The notes under the pieces are model-generated. The model searched no databases and was not told the origin of the DNA. It worked only from the letters and a program-made list of their open reading frames with translations. Below are positions 14,251-41,530 of a DNA stretch of 64,000 bases, piece after piece. This DNA comes from a virus (lineage: Duplodnaviria; Heunggongvirae; Uroviricota; Caudoviricetes). Position numbers and translations under genes: made by a program. Within the stretch, counting starts at the first letter, position 1. Each line of letters opens with the position of its first letter. The stretch covers positions 57,776 to 121,775 of IMG/VR virus record IMGVR_UViG_3300027994_000001; one strand, 5' to 3'.

Positions 14251-15042
14251 CTAATTATTTTTACAATACTTACATTCAGGCTGTATTATTTCTCCAGTTT
14301 CTCTTACTCTATATCTCCATAAGAAGCCTTTATACGATGCCTTCCAGCCATTACAAGTAGATAGCAAAGGACTAGTTTTGTAATTAGGGTTCTTTTCCAA
14401 TAGTTCTAACCTATTTTCAAAAGTCTCTAGTATTTCTCCGGTTAATTTATCTATTTTTAAATATTGATATAAATTATGATGCTCTGAGACCTTCTTCCTC
14501 ATGTCAATTTTTAATTGAGGATTTTCTTCCCATCGTCTATTTCTTTCTTCAATCCCTTTATATGTATTTGCAATATCTATTTTTAGCAAACCATTTGAGT
14601 GTCCTTCTTTTTTAAGATCTGACATGTATTTCTTTTGCTCATCTGACCAATAATTACCAAAGTTAGGATTATCCTCACCTAGAAATTTTCCTTTATATTC
14701 TCTTGACATCTTGTCTCGTTGCCATTGCTCCATTTTTCTACCATGTGTAGATTCTCCACCATTAGTAAGATTCAATAAATTGCCACCACAACAATCGGCT
14801 CTTTTATAATAAGCAATCAAAAGAATTTCTAATTCACAAGCCTCTTCTTTAGTTAAACCTGTAGTAAGTATTTGAACTTCATAATTAGAACAAATTTCAA
14901 TAAATTCTTTCCATTTTTTACTTCGATGTTTTTTATTATAAGGTCTTTTAAGATTATTTCCTATACCAATATAAAATACCATTCCTTCTGAAGTTAGGTG
15001 TCTATAGATACAATAAGGTTTTTCTTTCGTATTTTTATTCAT
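14251..15042 (-). CDS. GIY-YIG homing endonuclease
   Basis: CIYRH...VFYIGIG (GIY/YIG), conserved Arg, EEACELE glutamate, NLTNGG Asn block; long basic C-terminal DNA-binding extension. Lies immediately 3' of the DNA polymerase gene. Confidence 0.75.
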   Translation of the reverse strand: MNKNTKEKPYCIYRHLTSEGMVFYIGIGNNLKRPYNKKHRSKKWKEFIEICSNYEVQILTTGLTKEEACELEILLIAYYKRADCCGGNLLNLTNGGESTHGRKMEQWQRDKMSREYKGKFLGEDNPNFGNYWSDEQKKYMSDLKKEGHSNGLLKIDIANTYKGIEERNRRWEENPQLKIDMRKKVSEHHNLYQYLKIDKLTGEILETFENRLELLEKNPNYKTSPLLSTCNGWKASYKGFLWRYRVRETGEIIQPECKYCKNN

Positions 15043-17146
15043 TTTTTACCTTAGTTTTAGAAGGTTTTATTTCTTTTGGTTCGCCATGAATATCAGATAA
15101 ATACTGTCTCCAGTAAGTGTTATATTGTAATTCTGTGGGTATTTTTGAAATTATAAATTTGAGATAATTTTCTTCTTCTCTTTCTCTTTTCTTCTGTTCG
15201 ATTAAAGCTTTCCTTTCAGCTTCCAATCTTTCCTCTGTTCCATCTACACTGTGAATAATTCGAAAAGCTTGATTGATATAATAATCATAATCAACTTCAT
15301 AATTTTCAGATTTATAATAATCCATAAACATTGAGATTTTACTACCACCAACTGTTATTTCTTTACGACCATCATTATAATTTTTTCGCAAATTATCACC
15401 GTTAGTTGAAACATAAAATCTAATTACTTTATCGTTGATATTTTTTATAATATTTTCCTCATCATCTTCTAATGTATAATTCTGATTACTTTGTATCTTT
15501 TTACCTATACAAAAATCATATATCCCTTGATTCTCTATTTTACCGTAATTACCTACTGATAAATGATTTTTAACTGTTTCTTCTACTGGCACATTGTGAA
15601 TAAAATATCTCATAACTGCAATTTGTACAATTCTTTGACTACGATTTTTATGCATTTCTACATCAATTTCAAAAGCGCCTTTCATTTTTAATTTACCATT
15701 TGTATCAATCCCCAGGTAATTATTTATATCACGGGTAAACAATTTATCATAAACTGAATATTCTAATTGTAATTCAGTTAGATTTTCAATTGATACACAG
15801 GTATTATATACTTCTCTTTTTTTATCTTTAGGTACAATTAACTCAAGACCATCGGTATTTGCCATTACAATCTTAACACCTTCTATTTTAGAGAGCTGTT
15901 CACAGAGCATTGAAAGTATTAACTGACCATTTACTGTGATAGCCATTTGAAATAATTTATCGTAAAGAAAACTGTATTCATCGCCTCCTTTACCAAAAGC
16001 CGCATTTAAAAGTAACTTAATTGCCGTATTTTGAGGGTTTGATTTAGGAATTAATTTACGTTTTTCAAACAATTCTTCATATAATACACAAAAAGCTTCA
16101 GATAAATGTTCTGGGTAAAATCTATTTTTGATCGAGATATTTGGGTAAAAACTTGCAAAATCTATCGAAAGTACAATTTCTTTTTCATTTGAATTAAATA
16201 TAGAATTTCCTCTTGCAAAATGGAGGCCTCCTAAACCATAGAAATATTCACCTTCATCGAATACCATTAAATGTTTAAAAGCATCTTTAGTATCTTCGGT
16301 AATAATTTGTTCTTTAAAAAAGTCTAAAACAGAATTGAATTCAGGTGTTTCAAATTTAATATAAGGAAGAATTATATTTTTTAATTCAATTGTTTTACGG
16401 CGAGTTTGCATTTTCTTTAGTTTACTTTTTTCAATATCTAATTTCTCAGACATCAAATCTAAAAATAATGCTTCTCCAATACTACTATCTGATTTATTAA
16501 ATAATTCTAGATGAGGATTCTCCATCTGTTGAGTAAATCTTAATTCAACTAATTTTTCTGATTTCTTGAAAAATTCTTCTGTTGCGTCTACGTCATTATG
16601 ACAATAAAGAATAACATCGTCAAATTTACCTATTTCAAGAACTTCATCAAATTTATAAGGTAAATCTTGAACTTTTTTCCAGTTCATGGAGTACTCGATC
16701 CACTTTAAGCTACAAGATCTTGCACGATTATTGTAATGGTTCTGTAAAAATAAGTCTAACTGTTGACAAGATAATTTAGATTCTTGATATGGAGGAAATT
16801 CTTTTCTATTTATTTTTTCAATAACAGACTGAGCAAATTCCATAATATGTTTTGCCTTAGTTTTTCCTGTCAGTTTTTTAAATGGCTCTTTAGCTTCCAT
16901 TAACCATTGAAGGACTTGCGCATCAAATCGGCAATTATTGAATCCGATGAAAAACCAGCGTTTTAAAGCACCTTCTTTTAGAAAAGCTATTAGTTCTTCA
17001 TACTGATCTTTTCTCTCGCTTATTTCGAATGTTTTATACCTTCCTTGATATTTAAATACAACACAAAAGATACTTAGAAAAGTTTCAATATCATAAGTTA
17101 AGAATATTATTTGTTCTTTGTTCTCTTCTACTCCTTTATCTTCCAT
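15035..17146 (-). CDS. family B DNA polymerase with 3'-5' proofreading exonuclease (703 aa)
   Basis: Exo I YDIETF, Exo II GFNNCRFDAQVL, Exo III YCHNDVDAT; polymerase motif A IDFASFYPNI (DxxSLYPS), motif B KLLLNAAFGK (KxxxNSxYG), motif C MANTDGL (DTD). Confidence 0.85.
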   Translation of the reverse strand: MEDKGVEENKEQIIFLTYDIETFLSIFCVVFKYQGRYKTFEISERKDQYEELIAFLKEGALKRWFFIGFNNCRFDAQVLQWLMEAKEPFKKLTGKTKAKHIMEFAQSVIEKINRKEFPPYQESKLSCQQLDLFLQNHYNNRARSCSLKWIEYSMNWKKVQDLPYKFDEVLEIGKFDDVILYCHNDVDATEEFFKKSEKLVELRFTQQMENPHLELFNKSDSSIGEALFLDLMSEKLDIEKSKLKKMQTRRKTIELKNIILPYIKFETPEFNSVLDFFKEQIITEDTKDAFKHLMVFDEGEYFYGLGGLHFARGNSIFNSNEKEIVLSIDFASFYPNISIKNRFYPEHLSEAFCVLYEELFEKRKLIPKSNPQNTAIKLLLNAAFGKGGDEYSFLYDKLFQMAITVNGQLILSMLCEQLSKIEGVKIVMANTDGLELIVPKDKKREVYNTCVSIENLTELQLEYSVYDKLFTRDINNYLGIDTNGKLKMKGAFEIDVEMHKNRSQRIVQIAVMRYFIHNVPVEETVKNHLSVGNYGKIENQGIYDFCIGKKIQSNQNYTLEDDEENIIKNINDKVIRFYVSTNGDNLRKNYNDGRKEITVGGSKISMFMDYYKSENYEVDYDYYINQAFRIIHSVDGTEERLEAERKALIEQKKREREEENYLKFIISKIPTELQYNTYWRQYLSDIHGEPKEIKPSKTKVKNE

Positions 17147-24429: not shown

Positions 24430-25539
24430 TTAAAACGGAGAATTCACATCCTCTTTATCATCACTACTCCCAAAAGCATCATTAAGACTCATCAAAGGTG
24501 TCGGTGGAAACTTCTCTACTGTAAATGCTTCATTGTTGAAGACAGGAACGGTTGTTGAGAATGTTGGTGTATTAGTTGGATATTTATTTTTAAGCTCATC
24601 TGTTTTAAATATTTTTTCCGCGAAAACATCCTGAATATCTTTAATATCTGCATTTCTTCTTTTTAAATAAAAATAATACGAGACTCCTAAAGGCTCAAAA
24701 CTTGCTGTATTCCCGTTGTCGGAGTATAACTTATAATCTTCCAGCCAATCATAGCTATCTTTTCCAAAAATCATAAATTTATCCCTGATTCCTAATCTCC
24801 ACGGTAACATTTTAATATAAAGTACGTCGCACAGTTTAAGAAGTTGTCCCGAACCATACACATCTGATTCAATAGGTCTTTGATTTTTTATATTGTCTGC
24901 TCTCAGAATATAATTATCATTCATTTGATTGAGAATTATGAAGCAAATATAAGGATGTAAACCTTTAAGCCTATTAATTTCATACAGTAATGCATCCATA
25001 GCTGTCTTTTGACTGCCTTTTTCATCTAATACATTTTCCAGGTTATCAATAGAAACTACAATTTTTTTATCAGGGTATTTGGTGATAATACTTTCAATGT
25101 CAATAGCAAACTGCTTGGCGTTGACAGGTTCGTTCTGGTAATAGATATTATCATTCCTATGAGATTTACAAATTTCAGATAACTTCTTTAATTCCTCTTC
25201 TGATGGGTTGTTAAACAAAACCTGATCCATTGTTTGTCCTGTCCTTTGACAAATATCCCTAACTAATATTTTAAAAAACGTTAACTCCCAATTACAATTT
25301 ACAATTACAACATCATCTTGAGTATCAAGTAAGTGTCTTTGTATCCTTTCTAAATCATAGCTTTTTCCGTTTTGGGATCTTGCAATAATACCTAGAATCG
25401 TGGAAGGTAATAACCCACCCATCAAAACCTTATCTAAATGTGGAATTCCTACAGAAATTGGTTTTATCTCTCCCGTCTGAAACTTATTAATTAATGTTAC
25501 TGTGCTATTTGTAAGTTCTGTAGATTGGTATAAAGCCAT
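24430..25539 (-). CDS. DnaB-like replicative helicase (RecA-fold ATPase domain)
   Basis: ISVGIPHLDKVLMGGLLPSTILGIIARSQNGKS matches the DnaB C-domain GxxTGxxxLDxxxxGxxxGxLxxxAxRPxMGKT block (Walker A); VVSIDNLENV is Walker B-like. Confidence 0.7.
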   Translation of the reverse strand: MALYQSTELTNSTVTLINKFQTGEIKPISVGIPHLDKVLMGGLLPSTILGIIARSQNGKSYDLERIQRHLLDTQDDVVIVNCNWELTFFKILVRDICQRTGQTMDQVLFNNPSEEELKKLSEICKSHRNDNIYYQNEPVNAKQFAIDIESIITKYPDKKIVVSIDNLENVLDEKGSQKTAMDALLYEINRLKGLHPYICFIILNQMNDNYILRADNIKNQRPIESDVYGSGQLLKLCDVLYIKMLPWRLGIRDKFMIFGKDSYDWLEDYKLYSDNGNTASFEPLGVSYYFYLKRRNADIKDIQDVFAEKIFKTDELKNKYPTNTPTFSTTVPVFNNEAFTVEKFPPTPLMSLNDAFGSSDDKEDVNSPF

Positions 25540-30153: not shown

Positions 30154-31523
30154 TTGGATGTTCTTTTTCTAATGTACTCTCCAATGCATATGCATAACGA
30201 TATTTACTATCTTTATATTTCTCTGCTATTGTGTGCTCCTCTTTTCCGAACTTCCTAAAGCTGTATGGTGGATTAAACTCCATAGCAATTAATAATGTTG
30301 TAGGCGTGTATCCACAGACAAAACCAAAGACTCCTCCATAAGTTACCTTCTTGTCTGCCCATTTATCATATAGTATTTTCATTTTGGCTTGTATTAATTA
30401 AACTGCATGAACTCTTTGTTCAAACGTTCTAAAAGTTCTGTATTATAATCCACTTTTGCAATCAATTCCTCTAAAGTTTTTGATTCGTTTTGTGTGGTAT
30501 CTACAAAGTGTTTTAAGGCACTGCCTACACGTGGATAATAGTAAGGTTCAGTGTATAGAAATTCTTCCTGCTCTTCTGTCTTTTTATTTTTTCTTTCGCG
30601 AATTTCTGAGAAAATTAAAATAACGCCATTATCTGAATCCGGCTCTAAGTGCCACTCGTTGTTTAACTCTATCTTACTACTTTTGCTGAATATATTGTTC
30701 ATATTATTTATTTTTATAAGTATCCAAAAGCAATTGCTGCTGTTTCACCAATGTCACATAAATTACCATTGTCTTCATCAAAGTCACAGTCATTCTCTGC
30801 ATCATAAGTCGGCTCATCATAATATTTACCAATCTCCTCATCAAGTGCATTCCACTTATCTGTTATTCTCTGTAAGTAATTTAATTTCTCTATTACTTCT
30901 GTTGTAGTTAATACTACTCCGTCTTTAAGCACGAGTGCCCCATCTTGTGTGTACATGTTTATTGTTGTTTTAAGTTTATTTTCCGGCGAAAAAGAAGTAA
31001 CATACAGAGACTATTATAAGAAAAACAATAATGAAACCTACAAAACTGAAATCATCATCTCCATCTCCGCCTGTAGGGTTAGAAGTAATTTCGTAATAGT
31101 AAATAGGGTCATTTTCTTTTAACCACCTCATGTAATTTTCTTTACAGTCATTTGGATTATGTTCATCTAATTCTTGCATAACTATTCTGTATAAGTTAAT
31201 TTAATTCCAGTAAAAATTTCTGTATACCAAGCATCATGCGGATCTCCTCCTGGTTCTGCATGTGTTTCAGTTATTTCTCTGATTTCAACTTCTTTTGCGG
31301 AAATTCCAAGCTTTTCGGATAATATCTCTTTTAAGTCATCTATAGTGAATACAGCTTCTACTGTTATTGTTGTTTTGATTTCCATTTTTCGCGCAATAAA
31401 ATTAATAAATAAAAAATAGTAGCTTACCTACCAGCACAAGTCCTACGTTCTTACTTGATTACGAGTGAACCTGTAGTGCCACCAAATCCGCCGTTTTATT
31501 TTCTTCCTTTCGGCTTGGAATTC

Positions 31524-32465
31524 TTATTTCAAATTAACTAAAGTTCCATTTGCTCCCCCAACAACTGTATTTGAAAGTTTTCCATCCCAACGTTGAGCTT
31601 TCATGTACTCAATATAAATAGGAGATAGTTTCTTTTGTTTAATCTCTAAAGATAATGCTTCCGCCGAGGCTTTAATTACAACTGTTGCTGAATCTCCTTT
31701 TGCTATTGCTATCTTTCTTTGTGCATCTGCTGTTGCTGCCTTAGCTTGTGACTCAGAGGTAATTGCATCTTGAACGGCTTTTGCTTTGGCATTAATTGAA
31801 CTTACAATAGATCCAGGCGGTTGAATATTTGTTTTCAACTGAGAAATAAAAAACCATTTACCAACTCTTTTATTGGCTTCAACTACAATAGCCGCTTCAA
31901 ACTGCTGACGGTTGTTAAAAATATCATCTATTACAAACCTATTAGCTACATCATTAACTGCTCCTAGAATTGCTGTTTGTAACCATCCTTGTTCAATTGC
32001 TTCTAGACCACCTCTTTTAAATGTTGACCTTAGATTGGTAAACATATCCGCAGCGGCATGTTCTTTTACAGAATAATTAAATGTTGGATGAATATCGCAG
32101 GGAAAACCTCCCTTAGCAATAATAGTAGATTTAGGGTAAACAATGTTTCTTTGGTCTAAAGCAACTTCATGTAATTCCTGCGTATAAGAATTAAATAAAA
32201 CTAATCCTGATACTTCTTTAATAGCCGAAGCTCCACGAGTATCTCCAATTAGATTAACGGCTAATCCTTTGTAACCCGCTTCCACTTTCTTTAAAGAATA
32301 AGGTTGTAATAAAATAAGTAGAAGAAATACCACTGCTGCAACTACAGGTTTGTAGTGGAATTTTAGATTTCCATCTGGAAGAGTCTCTATTAAAGTTAAT
32401 TTTTTCTGAGCAAATAAAGCTCCAAATACTACTACGAAAATAATTAGTAAAATTGTTGTTACCAT
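31524..32465 (-). CDS. SPFH/band-7 (prohibitin/HflK-C-like) membrane protein
   Basis: N-terminal transmembrane helix followed by a band-7 core and a Lys/Ala-rich coiled-coil tail (AKAKAVQDAITSESQAKAATADAQRKIAIAKGD). Confidence 0.7.
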   Translation of the reverse strand: MVTTILLIIFVVVFGALFAQKKLTLIETLPDGNLKFHYKPVVAAVVFLLLILLQPYSLKKVEAGYKGLAVNLIGDTRGASAIKEVSGLVLFNSYTQELHEVALDQRNIVYPKSTIIAKGGFPCDIHPTFNYSVKEHAAADMFTNLRSTFKRGGLEAIEQGWLQTAILGAVNDVANRFVIDDIFNNRQQFEAAIVVEANKRVGKWFFISQLKTNIQPPGSIVSSINAKAKAVQDAITSESQAKAATADAQRKIAIAKGDSATVVIKASAEALSLEIKQKKLSPIYIEYMKAQRWDGKLSNTVVGGANGTLVNLK

Positions 32466-32784
32466 GTCTAATTTTTATGTTTATAATTTATTACTGCAAA
32501 CCTACAACCTTTATTTCACTTACGCAAGGAAAATCCAAAAAATTTCGCCGGAAAAAGAAAATTAATCAGGAATCTCCATCCACCTCACAACATCACCAAG
32601 CTCATACTCATCATTACTAGTATACCAATCATTAAAATCTGATCCATCTATAAATCCTGAATACAAAACAGCTACATAATAATCATTGTGCTCATCTTGG
32701 ACTAATACTTCATCGCTTTTCTTTCCGTCCCAATACCCTTCTTTATATGTTATTGGGAGTTCTTTGTCTGTATATTTCCACATG

Positions 32785-33492
32785 TTATTTTGCGAAGTAT
32801 TTATTGTAAACCGTTACATATTCACTAATTTCTTCTACTACTCTTGTAACTTTATCCAAAGCGTATTTCACTCTTTCCTCGGTATATTGTAAGGGTATAT
32901 AAAATTGCTCTGTTGATAAGTTCAAAGGCGGTTTGATATGTGATCCAGTTCTTCGACAAAACCACACACCCATTTCATTAATTGTATAACCTTCTAAAAC
33001 CAAGGCATAACAGTATAATAACAATTGTATGTAACTTTCCTTAGTATATTCAGCCTCTTTTTTAGCTCCCCCTGTCTTTATATCTTTCGAATTACATACG
33101 TTATCACCTAGATCTTCAAAAATATCTATAAAACCAATGACAACGAATTCTCCCATATCAATAAGGATCATCCTTTCATAAACAGTATTTTCACGTCTAG
33201 GAATTAGACTTATATTTTCCCCACCCGTAAATCCATGAGCATTAGGCTGTACTTCATTCAATTCTACTGTAGTTCCTACCCAAGAACCAAAATTTGCATA
33301 TACAGATTCTGGTAACTTAATACCTGCTAATTTCTGTTTAATAAAATCTGTTCTGTAATCTTCCCAAGAGGAGACAGTAGAATAACTGATATAAAATTTA
33401 CCTAAATGTGGTTCAATTAATTTTTCATTGCCTTCATAGAACCAATTGTCCTTACTTAATTTCGAGGGTAAATTTATTTTTACTTTTGTCAT
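32785..33492 (-). CDS. PD-(D/E)XK nuclease, RecB/Cas4-like
   Basis: GFIDIFED...DIKTGG (D...D/E-x-K) followed by the QxxxY motif as YIQLLLYCYAL. Confidence 0.55.
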   Translation of the reverse strand: MTKVKINLPSKLSKDNWFYEGNEKLIEPHLGKFYISYSTVSSWEDYRTDFIKQKLAGIKLPESVYANFGSWVGTTVELNEVQPNAHGFTGGENISLIPRRENTVYERMILIDMGEFVVIGFIDIFEDLGDNVCNSKDIKTGGAKKEAEYTKESYIQLLLYCYALVLEGYTINEMGVWFCRRTGSHIKPPLNLSTEQFYIPLQYTEERVKYALDKVTRVVEEISEYVTVYNKYFAK

Positions 33493-34431
33493 TTATATTG
33501 TTGCTAAAAATGTGTCTACTTCTTTTGTTTTTTTCTCTATTGTGGCTTTTGAATCTTGCTGATTATTGATGAAGTCATTTAAAATGTATACTCCTAAAAT
33601 CATTTCTCTAACAATCTCTCTATCACGTTTAGTTAATTTCTTCTTTTTCAACTGCTCTTCTAAGCCTGCTCTTATTTCCAAAGTCATTGCTTGTGATTTG
33701 TATAACTCTTGTAAAAAATTAACTGGTTTTACTGGCTCTACATCTTTAACTTTCTGTTCTACTAAGAGAGTCTTTAAAGGTGTTAACTCGAAAAGTTTTC
33801 TATGTGTTTGTGACAGCACCTCTATCTTTTTTATCGCCGAAATCTTCAAAGCCTCAAAATTCTCAGAATTATAGTAAGTAAACTCGTCTTCATAGGGAAT
33901 TATTCCCTCTTTATCTATATTTAGAATACTTGCAATTTCTTCTAATGAAAAAGAATAACGCCCTGCCCCCTTATAATATTGTTTCAGATCAAATCCAGAC
34001 AAATTCCAACTTTTTAAACCCTTGTACTTTAAGTCTGGGTGTGGAGGATTCAAATGACTGTTAGCATCTAATCTCACTCCAATATAAGGTAATACAATTT
34101 CGGCATCAAAATGGACTAGGTTATATTCTTGAAACTGTGTTTTAACCAGATTAACAAAATTCTGTAGTAAATCCACTTCTGTTCCTATAATATATTTAAC
34201 TCTGAGTTCACCATTGTGCTCAAAACCAATGATAATTGATGTTATAGCGGAAAAAAGAGGATTGCGCCATGCATTTAATCTAAACTTATCTTCTAATTCT
34301 TCATCCTCATACAATTCTCTCTGTTGATAATCCTTTTTGTATTTATTTTGAAACAATTGCAGCTCTTTGTCTGTAGGTACGACTGTTTGACTTGATTGGT
34401 AACTCCAATATAATACTTTTTTACTTTCCAT
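33493..34431 (-). CDS. hypothetical protein, possibly degenerate RNase-H-fold / PolB-exonuclease-like
   Basis: Weak Exo II-like NLVHFDAEIVLPY; no clear Exo I. Located between the PD-(D/E)XK and DnaQ-like nucleases. Confidence 0.3.
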   Translation of the reverse strand: MESKKVLYWSYQSSQTVVPTDKELQLFQNKYKKDYQQRELYEDEELEDKFRLNAWRNPLFSAITSIIIGFEHNGELRVKYIIGTEVDLLQNFVNLVKTQFQEYNLVHFDAEIVLPYIGVRLDANSHLNPPHPDLKYKGLKSWNLSGFDLKQYYKGAGRYSFSLEEIASILNIDKEGIIPYEDEFTYYNSENFEALKISAIKKIEVLSQTHRKLFELTPLKTLLVEQKVKDVEPVKPVNFLQELYKSQAMTLEIRAGLEEQLKKKKLTKRDREIVREMILGVYILNDFINNQQDSKATIEKKTKEVDTFLATI

Positions 34432-34434
34432 AAT

Positions 34435-35199
34435 TTATTCTTTTCCTAATAATTGTTTAATTTTAATTTTTGTTTCCGCAGGGAAGTCCTTACCGAGCAT
34501 CCAGTTGGCAAATCCAGGATTATCAACTACTGAGAGGTTTACATCCTTTCCAAAGCCATACCTGATAATCCTATCTTTATCTACATACAGACTTCCGTTA
34601 AGATCAAATCTTCTTTGCTCTCCTTGTAAATATTCGTCTATATCTTTTATAGTTTCAATTGGTGTTTCAGATTGTTGAATTAACACAGGTAATAAAATAT
34701 CCGCAATTTCCTTTGTGGCTTTTATATCAAAGACAGCACCATGCGCTCCCTCTAATTCTTTTCCTGTCAGTCTTTTATAAACATCCGATAAAGTATTAGG
34801 AAATAGTTTTCTATATAATTTTAAAATATCATATAAATTAGGATTCCACGTAATTCCTTCCAAACCTGCACGCTCGAATTCTGCTGATAAAAGTGGTACA
34901 TCATATTTATCTGAATTGAATCCCGCTAGATCACACCCACCAAACCATTTTCTAATAGCTTGGGCGTATTGTTTAAATACAGGTAAATCTTTCACCATGT
35001 CATCTGTTATTCCATGAACTTCCGAAGCTTCAACAGGAATTGGTATTTCTGGATTTACCAAAATTGTTTTTTCCTCTTGTGTGCCATCAGGATTATACTT
35101 TATACATGCTAATTCAATGATTCTTGCTGTCTGTGTTTCTACAGACGTGCTTTCAATATCAAAAAATATAATAGGTTTTTCTAATTTCATAATCTCCAC
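34435..35199 (-). CDS. DnaQ-like (DEDDh) 3'-5' exonuclease
   Basis: Exo I FFDIESTS, Exo II AGFNSDKYDVPLL, Exo III AHGAVFDIKAT. Confidence 0.8.
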   Translation of the reverse strand: MEIMKLEKPIIFFDIESTSVETQTARIIELACIKYNPDGTQEEKTILVNPEIPIPVEASEVHGITDDMVKDLPVFKQYAQAIRKWFGGCDLAGFNSDKYDVPLLSAEFERAGLEGITWNPNLYDILKLYRKLFPNTLSDVYKRLTGKELEGAHGAVFDIKATKEIADILLPVLIQQSETPIETIKDIDEYLQGEQRRFDLNGSLYVDKDRIIRYGFGKDVNLSVVDNPGFANWMLGKDFPAETKIKIKQLLGKE

Positions 35200-35269: not shown

Positions 35270-35632
35270 TCATTTTTCCACAGAAGGCGAGCAGGAACGA
35301 AGGAATGACACGAGGTAAAAGAACACAGAGAACAAACGGAACTCGTCCATATAGAACCAAGTATAATATTTTCTTTCATTCGTGTTTTTAAAGTTTGGAA
35401 TCCACCCTTTATTGTAAAATGCAGCCAACATAGCTTCTTGTTCATAATATTTTACATGTAAAGGGATATTTTTATAGAGTTCATCAAAATCCTTTTCTGT
35501 GGTTTTATGGTACTCGAGTACTTTTTGGAAGCTATTATAAACCTCTCTAAATACAATTCTATCGAAAGTAGATCTTTCTTTATCTATTTCAAATCCTTTT
35601 GGAACTTCAATTTTCAATTCTTGTGTTTTCAT
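35270..35632 (-). CDS. small protein carrying a second, degenerate DGR variable-repeat copy at its C-terminus (candidate secondary or decayed target)
   Basis: C-terminal FRLFSVFFYLVSFLRSCSPSVEK is encoded by VR2. The pre-VR segment KYYTWFYMDEFRL is paralogous to KYFPWWYLGKNFRL in the primary target. Confidence 0.5.
   Translation of the reverse strand: MKTQELKIEVPKGFEIDKERSTFDRIVFREVYNSFQKVLEYHKTTEKDFDELYKNIPLHVKYYEQEAMLAAFYNKGWIPNFKNTNERKYYTWFYMDEFRLFSVFFYLVSFLRSCSPSVEK
35279..35341 (-). repeat. VR2: VR-like repeat diverged from the TR at adenines and carrying two 1-nt insertions
   Basis: Hand-aligned to TR 36662..36722: about 20 substitutions, all at coding-strand TR adenines, plus two single-base insertions. 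It shares the GC-enriched 3' block CTCGCC(T)TCTGTG with VR1. Confidence 0.6.
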
Positions 35633-36584
35633 TTTCGTATTTATTTACTAAGTTTTTACTATTACAGTGGACTAACCAACTCTTATGATTTTTCTTTACT
35701 TTATTTTTAATATATTTTTTCTTAATTGACTTTCTTATCAGAGTATGTGTATGATAATGTTTATATCCCAAAAAATCAATGCTCCGTGCACTTACTGGAA
35801 AAACTTGATAATTTCCTTTTATTTCCAACTTTAGTTGTGTTCTCAGATAGTCTTGGATATTATAAAACCACTCCCATAATTGTTCTTTATTATCTGAAAG
35901 TAAAACCATATCATCACAATATTTGAAATAATATTTTACTTTTAAAACCTCCTTAATCCAATGATCAAAATATGTCAGATAGAAATTTCCAAAAAATTGA
36001 CTTGTGAAATTACCTAATGGAACTCCACTGTGAGAATCTATAATATCGTCTAATAAATATAGCAAATCATTATCTTTAAACTTTCGCCGTAACATTCCTT
36101 TTAATATCTCATTATCTATGTTAGGGAAAAATTTCTTAATGTCTAGTTTAAGGCAGTATTTTGTCCCCTCTGTGTCTTTCAATACCTTTCTTAATTTATA
36201 AGAAGCTTGGTGCACACCTCTTCCCTTCACACAACTATATGTATCAGCGGTAAAAACAGATACAAAAATAGGCTCTAAAATATTTAGTATGGCGTGGTGT
36301 ACAATTCGATCAGGATAGTAAGGCAATTGTGATATTGTTCTTTCTTTTCCATCGGATATTGTAAATACATTATATCTAGACGTTGTAAATTTTTTATCAC
36401 TTAAAGTTTTGTGTAAATTTAAAATATTATCTTCTTCATTCTGTAAATGTTTTATTACTCCGTATTGTTTTAATTTCCCTCTTCTTGCTTTCTTATCTGC
36501 TGACTGTAAGTTTTCAATGTTGATTATTTGCTGGTATAAATTATTGTGTCTTTTCATGCTCTGTGTATATAAACTCACTTTCAA
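35607..36584 (-). CDS. diversity-generating retroelement reverse transcriptase
   Basis: RT motifs LDIKKFFPNID, GVPLGNFTSQFFGNFYL (the DGR-specific [I/L]GxxxSQ in place of the retroviral QGxxxSP), YFKYCDDMVLL (YxDD) and IDFLGYK. About 325 aa, adjacent to a TR/VR pair. Confidence 0.85.
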   Translation of the reverse strand: MKVSLYTQSMKRHNNLYQQIINIENLQSADKKARRGKLKQYGVIKHLQNEEDNILNLHKTLSDKKFTTSRYNVFTISDGKERTISQLPYYPDRIVHHAILNILEPIFVSVFTADTYSCVKGRGVHQASYKLRKVLKDTEGTKYCLKLDIKKFFPNIDNEILKGMLRRKFKDNDLLYLLDDIIDSHSGVPLGNFTSQFFGNFYLTYFDHWIKEVLKVKYYFKYCDDMVLLSDNKEQLWEWFYNIQDYLRTQLKLEIKGNYQVFPVSARSIDFLGYKHYHTHTLIRKSIKKKYIKNKVKKNHKSWLVHCNSKNLVNKYENENTRIEN

Positions 36585-36661
36585 TTACTTTACTAACGAG
36601 TCTTTAAGGCTTTTATTTATTTTTTACCGAGAGGTAAAGTGTTTTTACTTATTTTAAAATC

Positions 36662-36722
36662 TACAGATGTGAGTAGGAACGTTGGAATTATTCGAGTTAT
36701 AGTTCACATTGTTCAAACGGAA
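36662..36722 (-). repeat. DGR template repeat (TR), 61 bp, intergenic between target stop and RT start
   Basis: Coding-strand read TTCCGTTTGAACAATGTGAACTATAACTCGAATAATTCCAACGTTCCTACTCACATCTGTA is rich in AAC/AAT codons. It matches VR1 at 47 of 61 positions; every mismatch is at a TR adenine. Confidence 0.8.
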
Positions 36723-36740
36723 GGGGTAAAAACACTTGTT

Positions 36741-37304
36741 TTAATTCATATAATCTTTCCAAATATCTTTAAACTGAGATGCTGAGTAATTTCCTAATTC
36801 GGAAGATTTGACACAGAGGCGAGAAGGAACGCAGGAACAATCCGAGTAATAGTTCACAGCGCCCAAACGGAAATTCTTACCTAAATACCACCAAGGAAAA
36901 TACTTATATTCGCTGTGATTATCCCAATCAAGTTCAATCCCATTATTTAGAGCCTTAGAAATAACTACAAGTTCTTGGCAAGCTACTACTTTTCTTTCTA
37001 AATTTGGTGTGTTTTTTAACAGCCTTAATTGAAGAACTTCATTATCTATCTCTCCCAACTGTTTACATGCATCCTCAACTGTCTTTATATCCTCCCAAGT
37101 GTCACGTACATCAAAAATCTCTTTAACAATGGGTAACTGCTCCGCTGTACAAGCTGTAATCATCTCGTTAATTTGTTTTTCTGTGAATTTTATTTCCGCG
37201 GAAAATGGATCTTCTGAGCCGAAAGCTTTTATTTTCTTCTTCCAAGAATCACAGGCAATATCGTGTATCTGTTTTAACTCTTCTCTGGTTATACTATTTT
37301 TCAT
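36741..37304 (-). CDS. DGR target protein (187 aa) with variable repeat near its C-terminus
   Basis: VR1 encodes FRLGAVNYYSDCSCVPSRLC, against the TR-encoded FRLNNVNYNSNNSNVPTHIC. The ORF stop lies 19 nt upstream of the TR on the coding strand. Confidence 0.75.
   Translation of the reverse strand: MKNSITREELKQIHDIACDSWKKKIKAFGSEDPFSAEIKFTEKQINEMITACTAEQLPIVKEIFDVRDTWEDIKTVEDACKQLGEIDNEVLQLRLLKNTPNLERKVVACQELVVISKALNNGIELDWDNHSEYKYFPWWYLGKNFRLGAVNYYSDCSCVPSRLCVKSSELGNYSASQFKDIWKDYMN
36812..36872 (-). repeat. DGR variable repeat VR1
   Basis: Ungapped 61-bp alignment to the TR at an offset of +150. 14 mismatches at + coordinates 36812, 18, 20, 24, 32, 33, 38, 39, 42, 48, 59, 60, 62 and 63, all opposite TR T on the + strand (A on the coding strand). 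Confidence 0.8.
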
Positions 37305-38285: not shown

Positions 38286-39209
38286 TTAAAAATTTCCATA
38301 TTCAACCTGAAAAACTTTCAATCCGAGTGCCCTAGCTCTTCTACAAACGGAATTTCTATCGTCTATTAAGGTAAGAATGTAGTTATTTTTCGCTATTTCT
38401 TCCCACAATTCCATTTTTACTATATCATCTGACCTAAAATCTCCTGATTTTCTCATATATAAGGTTATTTCAACATCTTCAAGATCTAATTCTAGATTAT
38501 CTCTTAACCATTTTTCTGTTTCTTCTCTACAACCCTCATCTCGACCCGAACAGAAAATTAATTCTGGCTGGTCTAAAGTCATATACAAATGTGCAAAAAG
38601 CTCTGCTACAGGAAAATCCAGTTTATCTTCTGAGACTTTTTTCCAGTCAAAAGGGCTTCTATTTCCCATATGTGCGAGTGTCCCATCAATGTCAAAAACG
38701 TAGCAAGCTGGTTTTTCTATGTCATTCTCAAATACAATAGGTTCAAAATCTTTTACAGGAATACCTTGTCTTTGCAGTTCCATATATTGATTGTGCTGTC
38801 TTTTTATTACTTCTGCTCCAACACTTCTGTTTCTTTTTGAATCTCTTTCTATTGCTTTTTCCGGCGAAATATCAAAATATTTGTAGCTTATTGGCACATT
38901 CCAATACTGAAACCTATCAAGGAACTCTTTCTTAAGGTGTGTGGCATCCACTAATACAGTTTTATTTTCTGCTAATCCTTCGTGAATTAAAACATCTTCA
39001 TACTTTGTTACCTGTTTTTCTAACTTAGAGATGTCTGGTCTGGAATAGTATTCTTTAATTGACTCTTCTGAGAAAGAAAACATCAATTCTCTGATTTTGT
39101 CCCGATTTACTACCAATACCCCTGTTGGATTTGCTCTCCATTGTTCGTGTGCATACGTCGATTTACCGCTGCCGGATATTCCCACTAAAACTTCTATCTT
39201 TTTACTCAT
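38286..39209 (-). CDS. pnk: polynucleotide 5'-kinase/3'-phosphatase (T4 Pnk-like)
   Basis: N-terminal P-loop GISGSGKST; C-terminal HAD phosphatase motif VFDIDGTLAH (DxDGT) and downstream acidic HAD blocks. Confidence 0.8.
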   Translation of the reverse strand: MSKKIEVLVGISGSGKSTYAHEQWRANPTGVLVVNRDKIRELMFSFSEESIKEYYSRPDISKLEKQVTKYEDVLIHEGLAENKTVLVDATHLKKEFLDRFQYWNVPISYKYFDISPEKAIERDSKRNRSVGAEVIKRQHNQYMELQRQGIPVKDFEPIVFENDIEKPACYVFDIDGTLAHMGNRSPFDWKKVSEDKLDFPVAELFAHLYMTLDQPELIFCSGRDEGCREETEKWLRDNLELDLEDVEITLYMRKSGDFRSDDIVKMELWEEIAKNNYILTLIDDRNSVCRRARALGLKVFQVEYGNF

Positions 39210-39879
39210 AATGAAATTGTCTTGTGTTATTTGCTTGAAGCATTATATTTAATAAATCATCATCTGTTTCTTGGATATAATAATTCTCCAATAAGTGATT
39301 CTGATACATGTCGGAGGCTTTTTGTCTTAGATAACCTTCCATTTCTATGCAATACTTTTTATCCTTTAAATTCAAAGCTATTTTCTGTATTTCTTCTTTT
39401 TTCGGCAAAATATTATCAATCAAACACTCCGCAATATAAAGGCTTCTATTAGCGTGAAATAATTTGTTTTTATTGTTATGTAGTTTTAAATCCCGTTTTG
39501 CAACTCCGCAATATGCTCGAATGAGCTTAAAAGTTCTGCATGTCTTCAAAACTTGCTCTCCAATCCTCTCATTTCCCCCAGTAAACAGTAAAATATCAGA
39601 ATGAATTGTACCATCACCACTCTTTAAATTAGCCCAAAACTGTTCTTCTGAAACCCAAATATATTGAGAGTTGTTTTCTAAGTCATCATATTGAAAACTA
39701 TGAATACTCGGTAAGCCGTTGACCTTTTCTTTAAAAACACTATCGTAATTATATACTCTCATATAATCATAGTCACTGTCTTCCTTGTTTGTACCGAAAA
39801 GCCTTGATCCAAATTCATATTCAATGTATCTGGATTTATTAAGCCGTTCGTGTTGTTCTTTTGTTATTTTTATGTTCAT
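39202..39879 (-). CDS. Pol-beta-superfamily nucleotidyltransferase-domain protein (paralog 1)
   Basis: FGSRLFGTNKEDSDYDYM fits the NTase signature hG[GS]x9-13Dh[DE]h. Confidence 0.5.
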   Translation of the reverse strand: MNIKITKEQHERLNKSRYIEYEFGSRLFGTNKEDSDYDYMRVYNYDSVFKEKVNGLPSIHSFQYDDLENNSQYIWVSEEQFWANLKSGDGTIHSDILLFTGGNERIGEQVLKTCRTFKLIRAYCGVAKRDLKLHNNKNKLFHANRSLYIAECLIDNILPKKEEIQKIALNLKDKKYCIEMEGYLRQKASDMYQNHLLENYYIQETDDDLLNIMLQANNTRQFHYE

Positions 39880-40541
39880 ATCAATAATTTTAGTTCCTCT
39901 AATAAGTCAGTGTTAAAACAGTTGTGTTTTTCAAGAATTTCTTTTATACTTCTTAACTTTTCTGTTTGTTTTTCTATCGGGTTTAGCTTTTTAAACTCCG
40001 TGGCCTTACTATTAAACAAAGTCCTATACTTATCATTTATTTTATCCCACAATTCTTGCCTGTCATGATAAGCTGATAATTTATATAAGTCTCTTAGCAG
40101 CCAATTCATATTTGAATAATCAAGTATCTTACCTTCTCTCATAATTTGAATTGCAAAATCTAATATCCTAATAGAATGAAATATAGATTTAAGTGCAATA
40201 TCTAAGTCATAATCTCCGATAACAATAAGTTTCTTTTTTCCTTTAACCCAACTATTTGATGTTAACATTGATATATTTCGTCTAAAGGATTCTTTATTTA
40301 TATCAACTGTTGGGAATTCCCACTTATAAACTTCAAAGGTACTCTTATCTGCAAAATAAACTTCTAAACAAGCAATATCTCCGTTTTTAACAGCCGTTAT
40401 AAAAGATTCTTTAGTAAAACAGTGAATATTTACATCTTCTATTTTTTCTAGTTCGTCTTGTATCACAATATAATCATGATCAGATTTTTCTGAATGGCTT
40501 CCGTACAGTCTACTACCAAATAAGCATTTGTTTAAAATCAT
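39876..40541 (-). CDS. Pol-beta-superfamily nucleotidyltransferase-domain protein (paralog 2)
   Basis: FGSRLYGSHSEKSDHDYIV is the same signature; similar length and a 4-nt overlap with paralog 1. Confidence 0.5.
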   Translation of the reverse strand: MILNKCLFGSRLYGSHSEKSDHDYIVIQDELEKIEDVNIHCFTKESFITAVKNGDIACLEVYFADKSTFEVYKWEFPTVDINKESFRRNISMLTSNSWVKGKKKLIVIGDYDLDIALKSIFHSIRILDFAIQIMREGKILDYSNMNWLLRDLYKLSAYHDRQELWDKINDKYRTLFNSKATEFKKLNPIEKQTEKLRSIKEILEKHNCFNTDLLEELKLLI

Positions 40542-41530
40542 AATCTTTCAAATTTAGGTTTAATAGCCTTCCAAATTACTTGGGAATAGTCTTTATCATT
40601 ATACATATTGAATAAAATTCCTGACAAAGAGTACTTTAAAGCATCTAAAGCAAACTGTTTTTTATCTGTTGTATTAATTATTTTAAATACATATTTATAT
40701 TGGGCTTCTATTAAAAGATACTCTGACCACAACTTTTCAACAAATTCATCGACTTTATTATAAAATTCATCTGGAACTCCTTCTAAAATACTCATGATAT
40801 CATCACCGTTCTTTAAACATTCCCAAACAGAGGTTGTAGATACAGCTGTCATAATTCTGTGCAATCTCAAATACTCGTCACCTTTTATTTTACATCTTTC
40901 TCCATTATAAAACCTTACAACATATCCTTCTTCTGTTTCTTTTATTTCTTTGTTTAATTCTTTTAGTGGCGTTTTTGAATCAAAATTTTTTACTTTGTTA
41001 GGAAAATGAACCTCTTCTAAACTTTTTTCCACACCGGACTCAGTTTCAAATACTCCTGTTAAAATAACTCCTTCAAACTCCCCATAATCACATACAATTC
41101 TGTTGTTTTTATAGATTATCTCAAAACAATATGTATACTCTTTACTGAATTCACTGTAATCAGAAATAGCTTCTAAAAATTCTCTACCTTTAAGAGCTTG
41201 ATCAGATGTAAATGAACCGCGGGAAGCAAAAACCCAAGAATCATCATAATAGAATAAAATACCTAATGAACCATCAAGCTTCTCGTAAATATCATATTTA
41301 TCACATATATTAGTCTTACCCTCTGATAGATTAAAAAACTTCTTGAAAGGCTTAGCTACTACATTTCCTTTATCATCTGTTACAAGTCCTCTGCACATCA
41401 TTATGATATCGTTCCACAAGCTTTCATATTGAACTTTATCTGAATAGTTCCATATAAGTAATGGGAGTGTTGGGTGCTTCTGTTTGAAAACTAAACCTTT
41501 TTTTTCGTATTTTAACAGTATGTCTAACAT
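40538..41530 (-). CDS. ATP-dependent RNA ligase, Rnl1-like
   Basis: Nucleotidyltransferase motif I KxDG present as YEKLDGSLGILFY, resembling T4 Rnl1 KEDGSL; about 330 aa, adjacent to the pnk block. Confidence 0.65.
   Translation of the reverse strand: MLDILLKYEKKGLVFKQKHPTLPLLIWNYSDKVQYESLWNDIIMMCRGLVTDDKGNVVAKPFKKFFNLSEGKTNICDKYDIYEKLDGSLGILFYYDDSWVFASRGSFTSDQALKGREFLEAISDYSEFSKEYTYCFEIIYKNNRIVCDYGEFEGVILTGVFETESGVEKSLEEVHFPNKVKNFDSKTPLKELNKEIKETEEGYVVRFYNGERCKIKGDEYLRLHRIMTAVSTTSVWECLKNGDDIMSILEGVPDEFYNKVDEFVEKLWSEYLLIEAQYKYVFKIINTTDKKQFALDALKYSLSGILFNMYNDKDYSQVIWKAIKPKFERL

What the first reader, a model, noticed from the sequence alone, without database searches (positions are those of the whole stretch)
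31524..32465. Phage-encoded SPFH/band-7 membrane protein
A 313-aa protein with one N-terminal TM helix, a band-7 core and an Ala/Lys coiled-coil tail is unusual cargo in a phage replication region. SPFH proteins scaffold membrane microdomains and regulate membrane proteases. A ClpP/NfeD-like protease is also encoded in this window (61867..62334), and NfeD-SPFH pairs are a known bacterial operon theme, although here they lie 30 kb apart. The phage may use it to remodel host membrane during infection or to counter membrane-acting defences.
Basis: partly seen in the sequence, partly recalled or inferred. Interest (0 to 1): 0.5.

Follow-up and report, generated by a model that had tools for sequence, protein, structure and literature searches.

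The report
Phage-encoded periplasm-facing SPFH membrane protein
The gene is real and encodes a membrane-anchored SPFH (band-7/prohibitin-like) protein, but it belongs to a large phage family already noted in many phage genomes, whose function nobody has tested.

Summary
The 313-aa ORF at 31524..32465 (minus strand) is real. It scores 48.3 bits on Pfam Band_7 (cut-off 23.6) and matches PHROG 200 over its full length (E 1e-44). Its AlphaFold model matches HflK/C, prohibitin, stomatin and QmcA cage subunits end to end.

- It has two N-terminal hydrophobic helices, not one.
- Its SPFH domain most likely faces the periplasm. This rests on charge bias and on many homologues that replace the helices with a lipoprotein signal peptide.
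- It is not unusual cargo. Relatives occur in 208 deposited phage genomes and at least 369 IMG/VR contigs. Papers have noted phage SPFH genes since 2006.
- The supposed ClpP/NfeD partner at 61867..62334 does have a ClpP-like fold. It lacks an NfeD domain and membrane segments and lies 30 kb away, so there is no NfeD-SPFH pair.

The gene is under strong purifying selection (dN/dS about 0.05). It holds its position after two nuclease genes in related ~130-145 kb phages.

A more distant clade nearly always carries a translationally coupled 2-TM mini-protein upstream; this window lacks it.

The function is inferred only: a periplasm-facing HflK/C-like cage on the host inner membrane.

Verdict: new member of a known, functionally uncharacterised phage family. 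Interest is modest.

The parts
31524..32465 (-). SPFH/band-7 gene, 313 aa, ATG at 32465..32463, TAA stop at 31526..31524
   Evidence: ORF list and translation. Pfam Band_7 48.3 bits. PHROG 200 E 1e-44. An identical protein is on record on metagenome contigs, the longest 138.6 kb.
32409..32462 (-). Codons for residues 2-19: first hydrophobic helix (TM1). The N-tail is one residue with no K/R.
   Evidence: AlphaFold helix 2-19. Conserved in the family alignment. Charge statistics.
32355..32408 (-). Codons for residues 20-37: polar linker, variable in length, net positive (QKK directly after TM1). Predicted cytoplasmic loop.
   Evidence: Alignment A1. Across 209 family members the linker averages 4.3 K/R against 2.5 D/E, and the N-tail has 0 K/R.
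32307..32354 (-). Codons for residues 38-53: second hydrophobic helix (TM2), ending in the nearly invariant Q54-P55 motif just before the SPFH domain
   Evidence: AlphaFold helix 38-53. P55 invariant and Q54 nearly invariant.
31725..32288 (-). Codons for residues 60-247: SPFH (Band_7) core
   Evidence: Pfam envelope 60-247. Beta-rich SPFH1 and alpha/beta SPFH2 in the model. Foldseek matches to HflK/C, prohibitin, stomatin, QmcA, erlin and flotillin.
31629..31814 (-). Codons for residues 218-279: long Ala/Lys/Ser-rich helix. It corresponds to the coiled-coil wall helix of SPFH cages.
   Evidence: Model helix 218-279. Composition A15 K9 S8 of 62 residues. Aligned over about 290-300 columns with full-length cage subunits.
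31527..31628 (-). Codons for residues 280-313: C-terminal tail with the family motif Y-x-E-Y..W293-D-G-K-L (consensus WDGxLPT) and a Gly-rich end. Low model confidence.
   Evidence: W293 and G295 nearly invariant; P298 nearly invariant in the family but Ser in this protein. The motif is kept in the distant phage homologues PaP4 gp18 and cr126_1 gp042. pLDDT below 50 for residues 299-313.
32466..32561 (-). 96-nt upstream intergenic region. It contains TAGGTTTG (32497..32504, minus strand), a match to the Bacteroidota -7 promoter consensus TAnnTTTG, 32 nt before the ATG. Weak lead only.
   Evidence: Sequence. The motif is not enriched in the window: 117 found against 103 expected. No sigma-70-like site on the coding strand.
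31386..31523 (-). 138-nt downstream intergenic region. It has a weak hairpin plus U-run, then an exact copy of the window-enriched motif TGCGCGAAAA abutting the ATG of the next ORF. Suggests a transcription-unit boundary after the SPFH gene.
   Evidence: Sequence. The fold is no better than shuffles, z = 0.18. Motif found 20 times against 2.4 expected, with an exact copy at 31386..31395.

Best explanation
Shown. The gene encodes a bona fide SPFH (band-7, prohibitin/HflK/C-like) protein. It is carried by an uncultivated phage whose longest recorded contig is about 139 kb; the host is probably a Flavobacterium. The protein has two N-terminal hydrophobic helices, an SPFH core, a 62-residue helix and a conserved WDG-type tail. 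It belongs to a family found in many phage genomes and viral contigs (PHROG 200). It is under strong purifying selection and keeps its place in this phage lineage.

Inferred.
- Topology is N-out, loop-in, C-out. The SPFH domain and coiled coil then sit on the periplasmic face of the host inner membrane, the orientation of HflK/C.
- Like every structurally solved full-length SPFH protein, it self-assembles into a ring or dome that fences off a patch of membrane.
- As an HflK/C- or prohibitin-type cage, it most likely encloses and restrains a host inner-membrane protein. The best candidate by homology is the FtsH-type quality-control protease. Caging it would change which membrane or regulatory proteins survive during infection.

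The protein works alone or with a universal host component. It has no conserved phage partner here.
For: SPFH membership: Pfam Band_7 48.3 bits against a 23.6 cut-off. AlphaFold model with mean pLDDT 77.7. The best PDB matches are HflK/C (7vhq, 9cz2, 7wi3), prohibitin (8rrh, 9o9z), stomatin and QmcA, aligned over about 290-300 of 313 residues at E about 1e-11 to 1e-10.

Periplasmic orientation:
- The N-tail is about 1 residue with no K/R. The linker is net positive (4.3 K/R against 2.5 D/E). The segment after TM2 is neutral. These figures are from 209 family members.
- Of 119 full-length 50%-cluster representatives, 58 carry a lipoprotein signal peptide whose Cys directly precedes the first SPFH strand. 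Several of the 30 classed as single-TM/signal also show lipobox-like ends. 26 have the two-TM form.
- Examples are PaP4 gp18 '...AITAGC|SKVPAGYTG' and cr126_1 gp042 '...VFSSC|ERIDAGCEG'.

Functional constraint: dN/dS is 0.05 against the 88%-identical orthologue. Residues 57-290 differ at only a handful of positions. SPFH is the best conserved of the syntenic genes, 88% against 24-78%. The order exonuclease, PD-(D/E)XK nuclease, SPFH is kept in ~145 kb viral contigs L092 and L094.

Stand-alone action: the context differs in FL-1 (between terminase and portal), in an Elizabethkingia prophage-like region, in a contig carrying crAss-type genes and in host chromosomes.

Precedent, from established knowledge: HflK/C cages FtsH from the periplasmic side, and lambda targets FtsH with CIII. 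The HflK/C-FtsH structures are among the top fold hits.
Against: - No experiment exists for any phage SPFH protein. Seven literature searches found only annotations and 'reason remains unclear' statements.
- No ftsH or other protease gene is associated with the SPFH gene in 165 loci examined.
- NCBIfam HflK and HflC models do not match. The gene is single, whereas hflK-hflC is a paralogous pair.
- Sequence identity to solved SPFH proteins is only 11-19%. A profile of the family finds no PDB sequence. Target specificity therefore cannot be transferred.
- Oligomerisation and topology are predictions.
- The family occurs in strictly lytic as well as temperate phages, so a lambda-style lysogeny role cannot be general.
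Confidence: 0.33

Rival explanations
1. Superinfection-exclusion or envelope-shield factor. The periplasm-facing SPFH assemblies cover or stiffen the inner membrane of the infected (or lysogenic) cell. Incoming DNA of competing phages, or lysis from without, cannot then breach it. Known analogues are extracytoplasmic phage exclusion proteins: lipoproteins T5 Llp and TP-J34 Ltp, and membrane proteins T4 Imm/Sp.
For: - The family is extracytoplasmic and often a lipoprotein. Several known exclusion proteins are extracytoplasmic lipoproteins (own knowledge).
- It behaves like a mobile single-gene moron with unrelated contexts: inside the FL-1 structural module, in prophage-like regions, and in a Kaistella variable island next to Fic, RT and KAP NTPase genes.
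- In Vi01-like phage PhiSH19 the SPFH gene is listed next to an annotated superinfection exclusion protein.
- Neighbours in viral contigs are often small exported or membrane proteins.
Against: No member has been tested. There is no PADLOC match. The very strong conservation of the core between phage and chromosomal copies (65-68% identity) is unlike the fast-evolving exclusion proteins. The association with exclusion genes is anecdotal.
Confidence: 0.25
2. Counter-defence or membrane-integrity factor. The cage stabilises the inner membrane or sequesters membrane-acting host suicide effectors (pore-forming Abi, CBASS or retron effectors). The infected cell then keeps its membrane potential until progeny are made.
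For: - The gene sits in an auxiliary region rich in counter-defence-type genes: Rnl1 RNA ligase plus PNKP (tRNA repair), a HAD_SAK_2 RNA-repair domain and an Acb3-like CBASS inhibitor.
- In relatives, SPFH lies near NAMPT/Prs (cr126_1) or near NAMPT, PNK and RNA ligase (Pseudomonas phage PHB09 gene table).
- A B. subtilis SPFH protein has a published membrane-stress role: YdjI links PspA to the membrane, according to the title of PMC8581546.
Against: This is pure guilt by association, and most of the listed genes are kilobases away. A periplasmic domain cannot reach the cytoplasmic parts of effectors. There is no experimental precedent.
Confidence: 0.12
3. Lysis-timing component. The SPFH assembly organises or restrains holin, spanin or endolysin action at the inner membrane.
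For: In crAss-like phage cr126_1 the order is: 64-aa 2-TM protein, SPFH lipoprotein, 121-aa multi-TM (holin-like) protein, peptidoglycan hydrolase. A membrane anchor plus a long periplasmic helix resembles i-spanin architecture.
Against: In this window the gene lies among replication and recombination genes, and no lysis gene was identified nearby. In PaP4 it is in the early left arm. In FL-1 the annotated lysin is about 8 kb away. No lysis gene was recognisable from sequence in the 25 largest neighbour clusters.
Confidence: 0.1
4. SPFH-NfeD type pair with the ClpP-like ORF at 61867..62334. The protease would process or regulate the SPFH protein.
For: The 155-aa ORF has a ClpP-like fold with invariant Ser65 and His89. 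One source names a 66%-identical homologue 'ATP-dependent Clp protease proteolytic subunit'.
Against: It has no NfeD domain and no Pfam match at all. No hydrophobic segment is visible in its sequence, and it is predicted soluble while the SPFH domain is predicted periplasmic. It is 30 kb away, and its stop overlaps the start of an Acb3-like gene. SPFH genes in FL-1, prophage-like regions and host chromosomes occur without it within the flanks examined.
Confidence: 0.03

Closest known systems
PHROG 200 phage SPFH / 'lipoprotein' family (e.g. Flavobacterium phage FL-1 APZ82870.1, crAss-like cr126_1 gp042, Pseudomonas phage PaP4 gp18)
   Same: Full-length profile match at E 1e-44. 65% identity to the FL-1 protein. 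Shares the SPFH core, the long helix and the C-terminal WDGKLP-type motif. Phage-encoded, with function untested.
   Different: This protein and its close clade are anchored by two TM helices and have no lipobox Cys, so the name 'lipoprotein' does not apply. PaP4 and cr126_1 have lipoprotein signal peptides. The window lacks the small 2-TM upstream partner found in the clade at 52% identity or below.
E. coli HflK/HflC (FtsH-caging SPFH complex)
   Same: Top structural matches: 7vhq, 9cz2 and 7wi3 at E 1e-11 to 1e-10 over about 290-300 columns. The order of anchor, SPFH domain, coiled coil and C-terminal tail is the same. Both have a predicted periplasm-facing orientation.
   Different: Identity is only 11-15%. 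NCBIfam HflK/HflC models do not match. This is a single gene rather than a K/C paralogue pair. It has two TM helices with a one-residue N-tail, rather than one TM with a cytoplasmic N-terminus. No link to FtsH has been shown.
Prohibitin PHB1/PHB2 (mitochondrial inner-membrane SPFH ring associated with the m-AAA protease)
   Same: Second-best structural matches: 8rrh and 9o9z, 15-19% identity. Depositors label several phage homologues 'prohibitin family protein'. In both, the SPFH domain faces the non-matrix/non-cytoplasmic side of the membrane.
   Different: Prohibitin is eukaryotic and heteromeric. No sequence-level match to PDB prohibitin chains was found, even with a family profile.
QmcA-YbbJ and other SPFH-NfeD operon pairs
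   Same: Cage-type SPFH fold; 8z5g is a top hit and the only weak PDB sequence match. The distant clade of this family also has a small membrane-protein gene translationally coupled to the SPFH gene.
   Different: The SPFH domain of QmcA is cytoplasmic (own knowledge). No NfeD domain was found in any neighbour or in the small partner. The window has no partner at all.

Membership tests
SPFH / Band 7 superfamily (Pfam PF01145) | Match to the Band_7 profile above Pfam's gathering score | tested here: met
   48.3 bits against a 23.6 cut-off, E 1.5e-12, residues 60-247, profile positions 2-173 of 176.
SPFH / Band 7 superfamily (Pfam PF01145) | SPFH alpha/beta fold followed by a long coiled-coil helix, as in solved cage subunits | tested here: met
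   AlphaFold model with pLDDT 77.7. Foldseek probability 1.00 to HflK/C, prohibitin, stomatin, QmcA, erlin and flotillin.
SPFH / Band 7 superfamily (Pfam PF01145) | Membrane anchor N-terminal to the SPFH domain | tested here: met
   Hydrophobic helices at residues 2-19 and 38-53.
SPFH / Band 7 superfamily (Pfam PF01145) | Assembly into a large homo- or hetero-oligomeric ring or cage | not testable with these tools
   No multimer prediction or experiment was available. Inferred only from homology to cage-forming members.
PHROG 200 (phage SPFH, labelled 'lipoprotein') | Full-length match to the PHROG profile | tested here: met
   E 1.1e-44, 154 bits, residues 1-312 on profile positions 44-359 of 379.
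PHROG 200 (phage SPFH, labelled 'lipoprotein') | Lipoprotein signal peptide with a lipobox cysteine | tested here: not met
   There is no Cys before residue 123, and two TM helices are present instead. Lipoboxes are present in PaP4 gp18, cr126_1 gp042 and 58 of 119 diverse representatives.
HflK/HflC | Match to curated HflK or HflC family models | tested here: not met
   The NCBIfam scan at E up to 1 returned only two irrelevant weak hits.
HflK/HflC | Two adjacent paralogous SPFH genes (hflK-hflC) | tested here: not met
   A single SPFH gene; the neighbours are unrelated small ORFs and nucleases.
HflK/HflC | SPFH domain on the periplasmic side of the inner membrane | tested here: inconclusive
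   Predicted from the positive-inside rule and from lipoprotein homologues. Not measured.
HflK/HflC | Physical or functional association with FtsH | not testable with these tools
   No ftsH was found in the neighbourhood in 165 loci. No interaction data exist.
SPFH-NfeD operon pair | An NfeD-domain gene (PF01957) adjacent to, or co-transcribed with, the SPFH gene | tested here: not met
   The flanking ORFs have no NfeD match. The proposed partner at 61867..62334 has no Pfam match even at E up to 10. It has a ClpP-like fold only and lies 30 kb away.
SPFH + small 2-TM partner module (distant clade of the same family) | A 56-75 aa two-TM gene immediately upstream, overlapping the SPFH start by 4 or 8 nt | tested here: not met
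   Present in about 114 of 165 loci, all at 52% identity or below. HMMs of the partner find nothing in the 64-kb window (best E 0.08) or in any close-clade locus.

The most novel reading that the evidence does not exclude
The extracytoplasmic SPFH family (PHROG 200) is a general phage device that builds protective cages on the outer face of the host cytoplasmic membrane. The cages either exclude competing phages or neutralise membrane-acting abortive-infection effectors. Its recurrent placement beside counter-defence genes (tRNA repair, NAD salvage, Acb3-like) would reflect that role. The small 2-TM protein coupled to it in most members would be its adaptor or client.
Probability: 0.2. Interest if true: 0.65.

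Novelty: new member of a known kind. Interest (0 to 1): 0.3.

Why it matters
SPFH proteins are an ancient membrane-organising family whose bacterial roles are still poorly understood. Phages of very different types and hosts carry an exported version. None of the papers retrieved here reports a functional test of it; one from 2026 says the reason for its presence 'remains unclear'.

This window adds one more well-conserved example in a large, uncultivated, probably Flavobacterium-infecting phage. Three side results sharpen what a future experiment should test:
- The whole family is extracytoplasmic.
- Most members come with a coupled 2-TM mini-protein.
- The gene is under strong purifying selection and stably placed in one phage lineage.

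The cultivable relative FL-1 (65% identity) offers a tractable system. The finding itself does not change current understanding.

Tried and rejected
- Defence-system membership: PADLOC gave no match.
- NCBIfam naming: no meaningful match.
- PDB by sequence: the single sequence gave only a weak QmcA hit (E 0.05), and the family profile gave none. Fold comparison was needed.
- Near-identical DNA in deposited phages: none, so the phage itself is not in INPHARED.
- NfeD partner: rejected. The ClpP-like fold of ORF 61867..62334 was confirmed, but it has none of the NfeD-defining features.
- Small 2-TM partner in the window: HMM search of all reading frames was negative.
- Promoters: the sigma-70 scan found fewer sites than in shuffles. 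The Bacteroidota -7 motif TAnnTTTG is not enriched (117 against 103), and the combined -33/-7 pattern does not occur upstream of the gene. The TAGGTTTG upstream is only a lead.
- Structured RNA in the 3' intergenic region: z-score 0.18, and no Rfam family in the whole window.
- Functional literature on phage SPFH: seven searches gave only annotations. One hit for 'band 7' was a gel band.
- 'Recent passenger gene without function': rejected by dN/dS 0.05 and conserved synteny.
Full report
**1. The observation**

The minus strand of 31524..32465 carries an ATG-to-TAA ORF of 313 codons. The plus strand is closed in that frame. An identical protein is on record on metagenome contigs, the longest 138.6 kb. 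Homologues align from residue 1, so the start codon is sound.

All 90-aa-plus ORFs that look like genes lie on the minus strand, G+C is about 31%, and there are no tRNAs. PHROG and Pfam matches identify a phage replication and auxiliary region:
- DNA polymerase (15035..17146)
- DnaB-like helicase (24430..25539)
- DNA repair exonuclease (3812..5032)
- RNase_T exonuclease (34435..35199)
- a second 3'-5' exonuclease (33493..34431)
- a weak PD-(D/E)XK nuclease (32785..33492)
- Rnl1-type RNA ligase (40538..41530) and polynucleotide kinase (38286..39209)

Megablast finds no similar phage in the INPHARED collection.

**2. What the protein is**

Pfam Band_7 (PF01145) matches at 48.3 bits against a gathering cut-off of 23.6, over residues 60-247. 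PHROG phrog_200, labelled 'lipoprotein', matches over the full length at E 1.1e-44. PADLOC and NCBIfam give nothing useful.

An AlphaFold2 model built on 33 homologues has mean pLDDT 77.7. It shows helices at 2-19 and 38-53, a beta-rich then alpha/beta SPFH core, one 62-residue helix (218-279), a short helix (282-292) and a disordered tail.

Foldseek against the PDB returns only SPFH cage subunits at the top. These are HflK/C (7vhq, 9cz2, 7wi3), prohibitin (8rrh, 9o9z), stomatin (9oh9) and QmcA (8z5g). They align over about 290-300 columns at E about 1e-11 to 1e-10, but with only 11-19% identity. Sequence-only searches of the PDB barely see this: one weak QmcA hit, and none with a family profile.

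The 'one TM helix' is not correct: there are two hydrophobic helices separated by a polar linker of variable length.

**3. Topology**

Statistics come from 209 family members:
- The N-tail is about one residue with no Lys or Arg.
- The linker between the two helices averages 4.3 K/R against 2.5 D/E.
- The 15 residues after helix 2 are neutral.

The positive-inside rule then predicts N-terminus out, loop in, SPFH domain out, meaning in the periplasm.

Independent support comes from more distant homologues. An exhaustive phmmer search of 1.84 billion cluster representatives found 927 clusters at E 0.001 or below. Of 119 full-length representatives among the best 150:
- 58 have a lipoprotein signal peptide whose Cys sits directly before the first SPFH strand.
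- 30 were classed as a single TM or signal peptide. Several of these also show lipobox-like ends.
- 26 have the two-helix form.

Pseudomonas phage PaP4 gp18 (MKKILGLLAIAALAITAGC|SKVPAGYTG) and crAss-like cr126_1 gp042 (..VFSSC|ERIDAGCEG) are examples. Both keep the C-terminal WDGKLPT motif. The family as a whole is therefore extracytoplasmic. This is the orientation of HflK/C and the opposite of QmcA or bacterial flotillins (the latter from my own knowledge). Here it is a prediction, not a measurement.

**4. How common it is**

tblastn finds the protein in 208 deposited phage genomes. These are Flavobacterium phage FL-1 (65% identity, full length), crAss-like phages, Lak megaphages, and phages of Pseudomonas (64 records), Bacillus (31), Burkholderia (30), Erwinia, Stenotrophomonas, Alteromonas, Rhodobacter, Myxococcus and others. 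They are variously annotated lipoprotein, prohibitin family protein, band 7 protein or HflK/HflC.

Pattern scans found at least 369 relatives in IMG/VR viral contigs. They found 151 in one-genome-per-species bacterial contigs, almost all labelled Bacteroidota. The two scans used different patterns, so the counts are not strictly comparable.

Papers have listed SPFH genes in several phage groups:
- T4-like phages, 2006
- Vi01-like phages, 2011 and 2024
- a Pseudomonas satellite prophage, 2016
- Burkholderia phage CSP3, 2023
- an N4-like phage, 2026, with the remark that the reason for its presence 'remains unclear'

I found no functional study. The gene is thus not unusual cargo; it is a recurrent phage accessory gene of unknown function.

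**5. Evolutionary behaviour**

The nearest relative (88% identity) lies on a 130-kb contig of a related phage. That phage keeps the order reverse transcriptase, small ORF, exonuclease, SPFH, 102-aa ORF. SPFH is the best conserved of the shared genes, at 88% against 24-78%.

Nei-Gojobori dN/dS between the two SPFH genes is about 0.05 (dS about 1.5, close to saturation). The amino-acid differences are confined almost entirely to the membrane/linker segment and the last 20 residues.

Two ~145-kb viral contigs (L092, L094) keep the order exonuclease, PD-(D/E)XK nuclease, SPFH at 54% SPFH identity.

Elsewhere only the SPFH gene is shared:
- In FL-1 it sits between the terminase and the portal.
- In Elizabethkingia it is in a prophage-like region that includes a Peptidase_S49 gene.
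- In Flavobacterium sp. FlaQc-50 it is beside genes with crAss-type and giant LPD23 domains.
- In Kaistella it is in a variable island with Fic, RT and KAP NTPase genes.
- In another contig it lies among ordinary chromosomal genes such as gldB and gldL.

It is thus both stably inherited within a phage lineage and horizontally mobile as a single gene.

**6. Partners**

No NfeD-like gene flanks it.

However, an AlphaFold model built on 15 homologues (pLDDT 83) matches only ClpP in the top 50 Foldseek hits (E about 1e-7, TM 0.60-0.65). Ser65 and His89 are invariant. One database names a homologue as a Clp protease subunit.

It is therefore a small soluble ClpP-fold protein. It has no NfeD domain and no visible hydrophobic segment, it lies 30 kb away, and its stop overlaps the start of an Acb3-like gene. 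It is not an NfeD partner.

A different partner emerged from comparing 165 loci. In about 114 of them, all with SPFH identity of 52% or below and drawn from both viral contigs and Chitinophagales/Bacteroidia genomes, a 56-75 aa two-TM protein lies immediately upstream. In its largest cluster the short loop carries a conserved EY-x-[IV]-[NS]-R-[EP] motif. Its gene usually overlaps the SPFH start by 4 or 8 nt. It has no Pfam family. cr126_1 has a protein of the same architecture.

The close clade, including this window, lacks this partner. HMMs of it find nothing in any frame of the 64-kb window.

**7. Mechanism**

Firm (shown):
- It is an SPFH protein.
- It is anchored by two helices.
- It is strongly constrained.
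- It is a member of a family found in many phages.

Inferred:
- It has a periplasm-facing topology.
- It self-assembles into a ring or cage, as all solved full-length SPFH proteins do.

The purpose is the open part. I commit to the homology-default reading at about one chance in three: an HflK/C- or prohibitin-like cage that encloses a host inner-membrane protein, FtsH being the precedent. HflK/C and prohibitin are the best fold matches, share the predicted orientation and partner FtsH-family proteases. Phages are also known to target FtsH (lambda CIII, own knowledge).

Against this: no ftsH association in any locus, no match to curated HflK/C models, a single gene rather than a pair, and presence in strictly lytic phages.

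The rivals are:
- Superinfection exclusion or envelope shielding (about 0.25). This is supported by extracytoplasmic lipoprotein precedents, moron-like mobility and an anecdotal neighbour in Vi01-like phages.
- Counter-defence or membrane integrity (about 0.12). This rests on guilt by association with Rnl1/PNKP, an Acb3-like gene, and NAMPT in relatives.
- Lysis timing (about 0.1). In cr126_1 a holin-like gene and an endolysin lie directly downstream, but nothing comparable is present here.
- The NfeD pairing (about 0.03).

**8. Expression signals**

The 96-nt upstream gap contains TAGGTTTG 32 nt before the ATG. This matches the Bacteroidota -7 consensus, but the motif is not enriched in the window.

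The 138-nt downstream gap has only a weak hairpin and U-run, and it folds no better than shuffled sequence. It ends with an exact copy of TGCGCGAAAA abutting the next ATG. That motif occurs 20 times in the window against 2.4 expected, which hints at a unit boundary after the SPFH gene.

**9. Verdict**

It is a new member of a known kind. It lies far from characterised SPFH proteins in sequence but squarely inside a phage family that is already catalogued. Interest is modest (0.3). The open question, what exported SPFH proteins do for phages, is real, but this window does not make it more testable than the cultivable phages that carry the same gene.

Noticed in passing
window 35607..37304 (minus strand): A diversity-generating retroelement. 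A 60-nt repeat pair (36663-36722 and 36813-36872, 78% identical) differs at 13 positions. All 13 are A in the intergenic copy (template repeat) on the coding strand and another base in the copy inside the 3' end of ORF 36741..37304 (187 aa, the variable repeat). The reverse transcriptase (35607..36584; RVT_1 61 bits; phrog_1423 E 1e-108) follows directly. It sits among replication and early genes, about 4 kb upstream of the SPFH gene. The related phage keeps the RT at 78% identity.
   Followed up: partly
window 61106..62655 (minus strand): Three abutting genes. A YunG-like gene (62335..62655) is followed by a 155-aa soluble ClpP-fold protein with invariant Ser65 and His89 (61867..62334; no Pfam match, fold only). 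Next is a protein whose C-terminal half matches the CBASS inhibitor Acb3 (61106..61867, 126 bits). The ClpP-fold stop overlaps the Acb3-like start.
   Followed up: partly
loci L034-L086 and L096-L166, immediately upstream of the SPFH gene (e.g. L152 1362..1550): In about 114 of 165 related loci, a 56-75 aa two-TM protein is translationally coupled to the SPFH gene (overlap 4 or 8 nt). Its largest cluster has a conserved EY-x-[IV]-[NS]-R-[EP] loop. It has no Pfam family. It is absent from the window's clade.
   Followed up: partly
locus L174 (crAss-like phage cr126_1) 2249..4097: Gene order: 64-aa 2-TM protein, SPFH lipoprotein, 121-aa multi-TM holin-like protein, peptidoglycan hydrolase, preceded by NAMPT and Prs genes. 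This is the only context seen that links the family to a lysis cassette.
   Followed up: no
window 38286..41530 and 59924..60421 (minus strand): An RNA-repair set: Rnl1-type RNA ligase (40538..41530), polynucleotide kinase/phosphatase (38286..39209) and a separate HAD_SAK_2 'Swiss Army Knife RNA repair' domain protein (59924..60421).
   Followed up: no
window, 20 sites, e.g. 5990, 10854, 14173 and 31386 (minus strand): The motif TGCGCGAAAA (up to 1 mismatch) occurs 20 times against 2.4 expected, with 0 of 100 shuffles reaching 20. The copy at 31386..31395 directly abuts a start codon on the coding strand, and several longer intergenic repeats (D3, D6, D7) contain related sequence. It may be a phage promoter or a translation-initiation element.
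   Followed up: no
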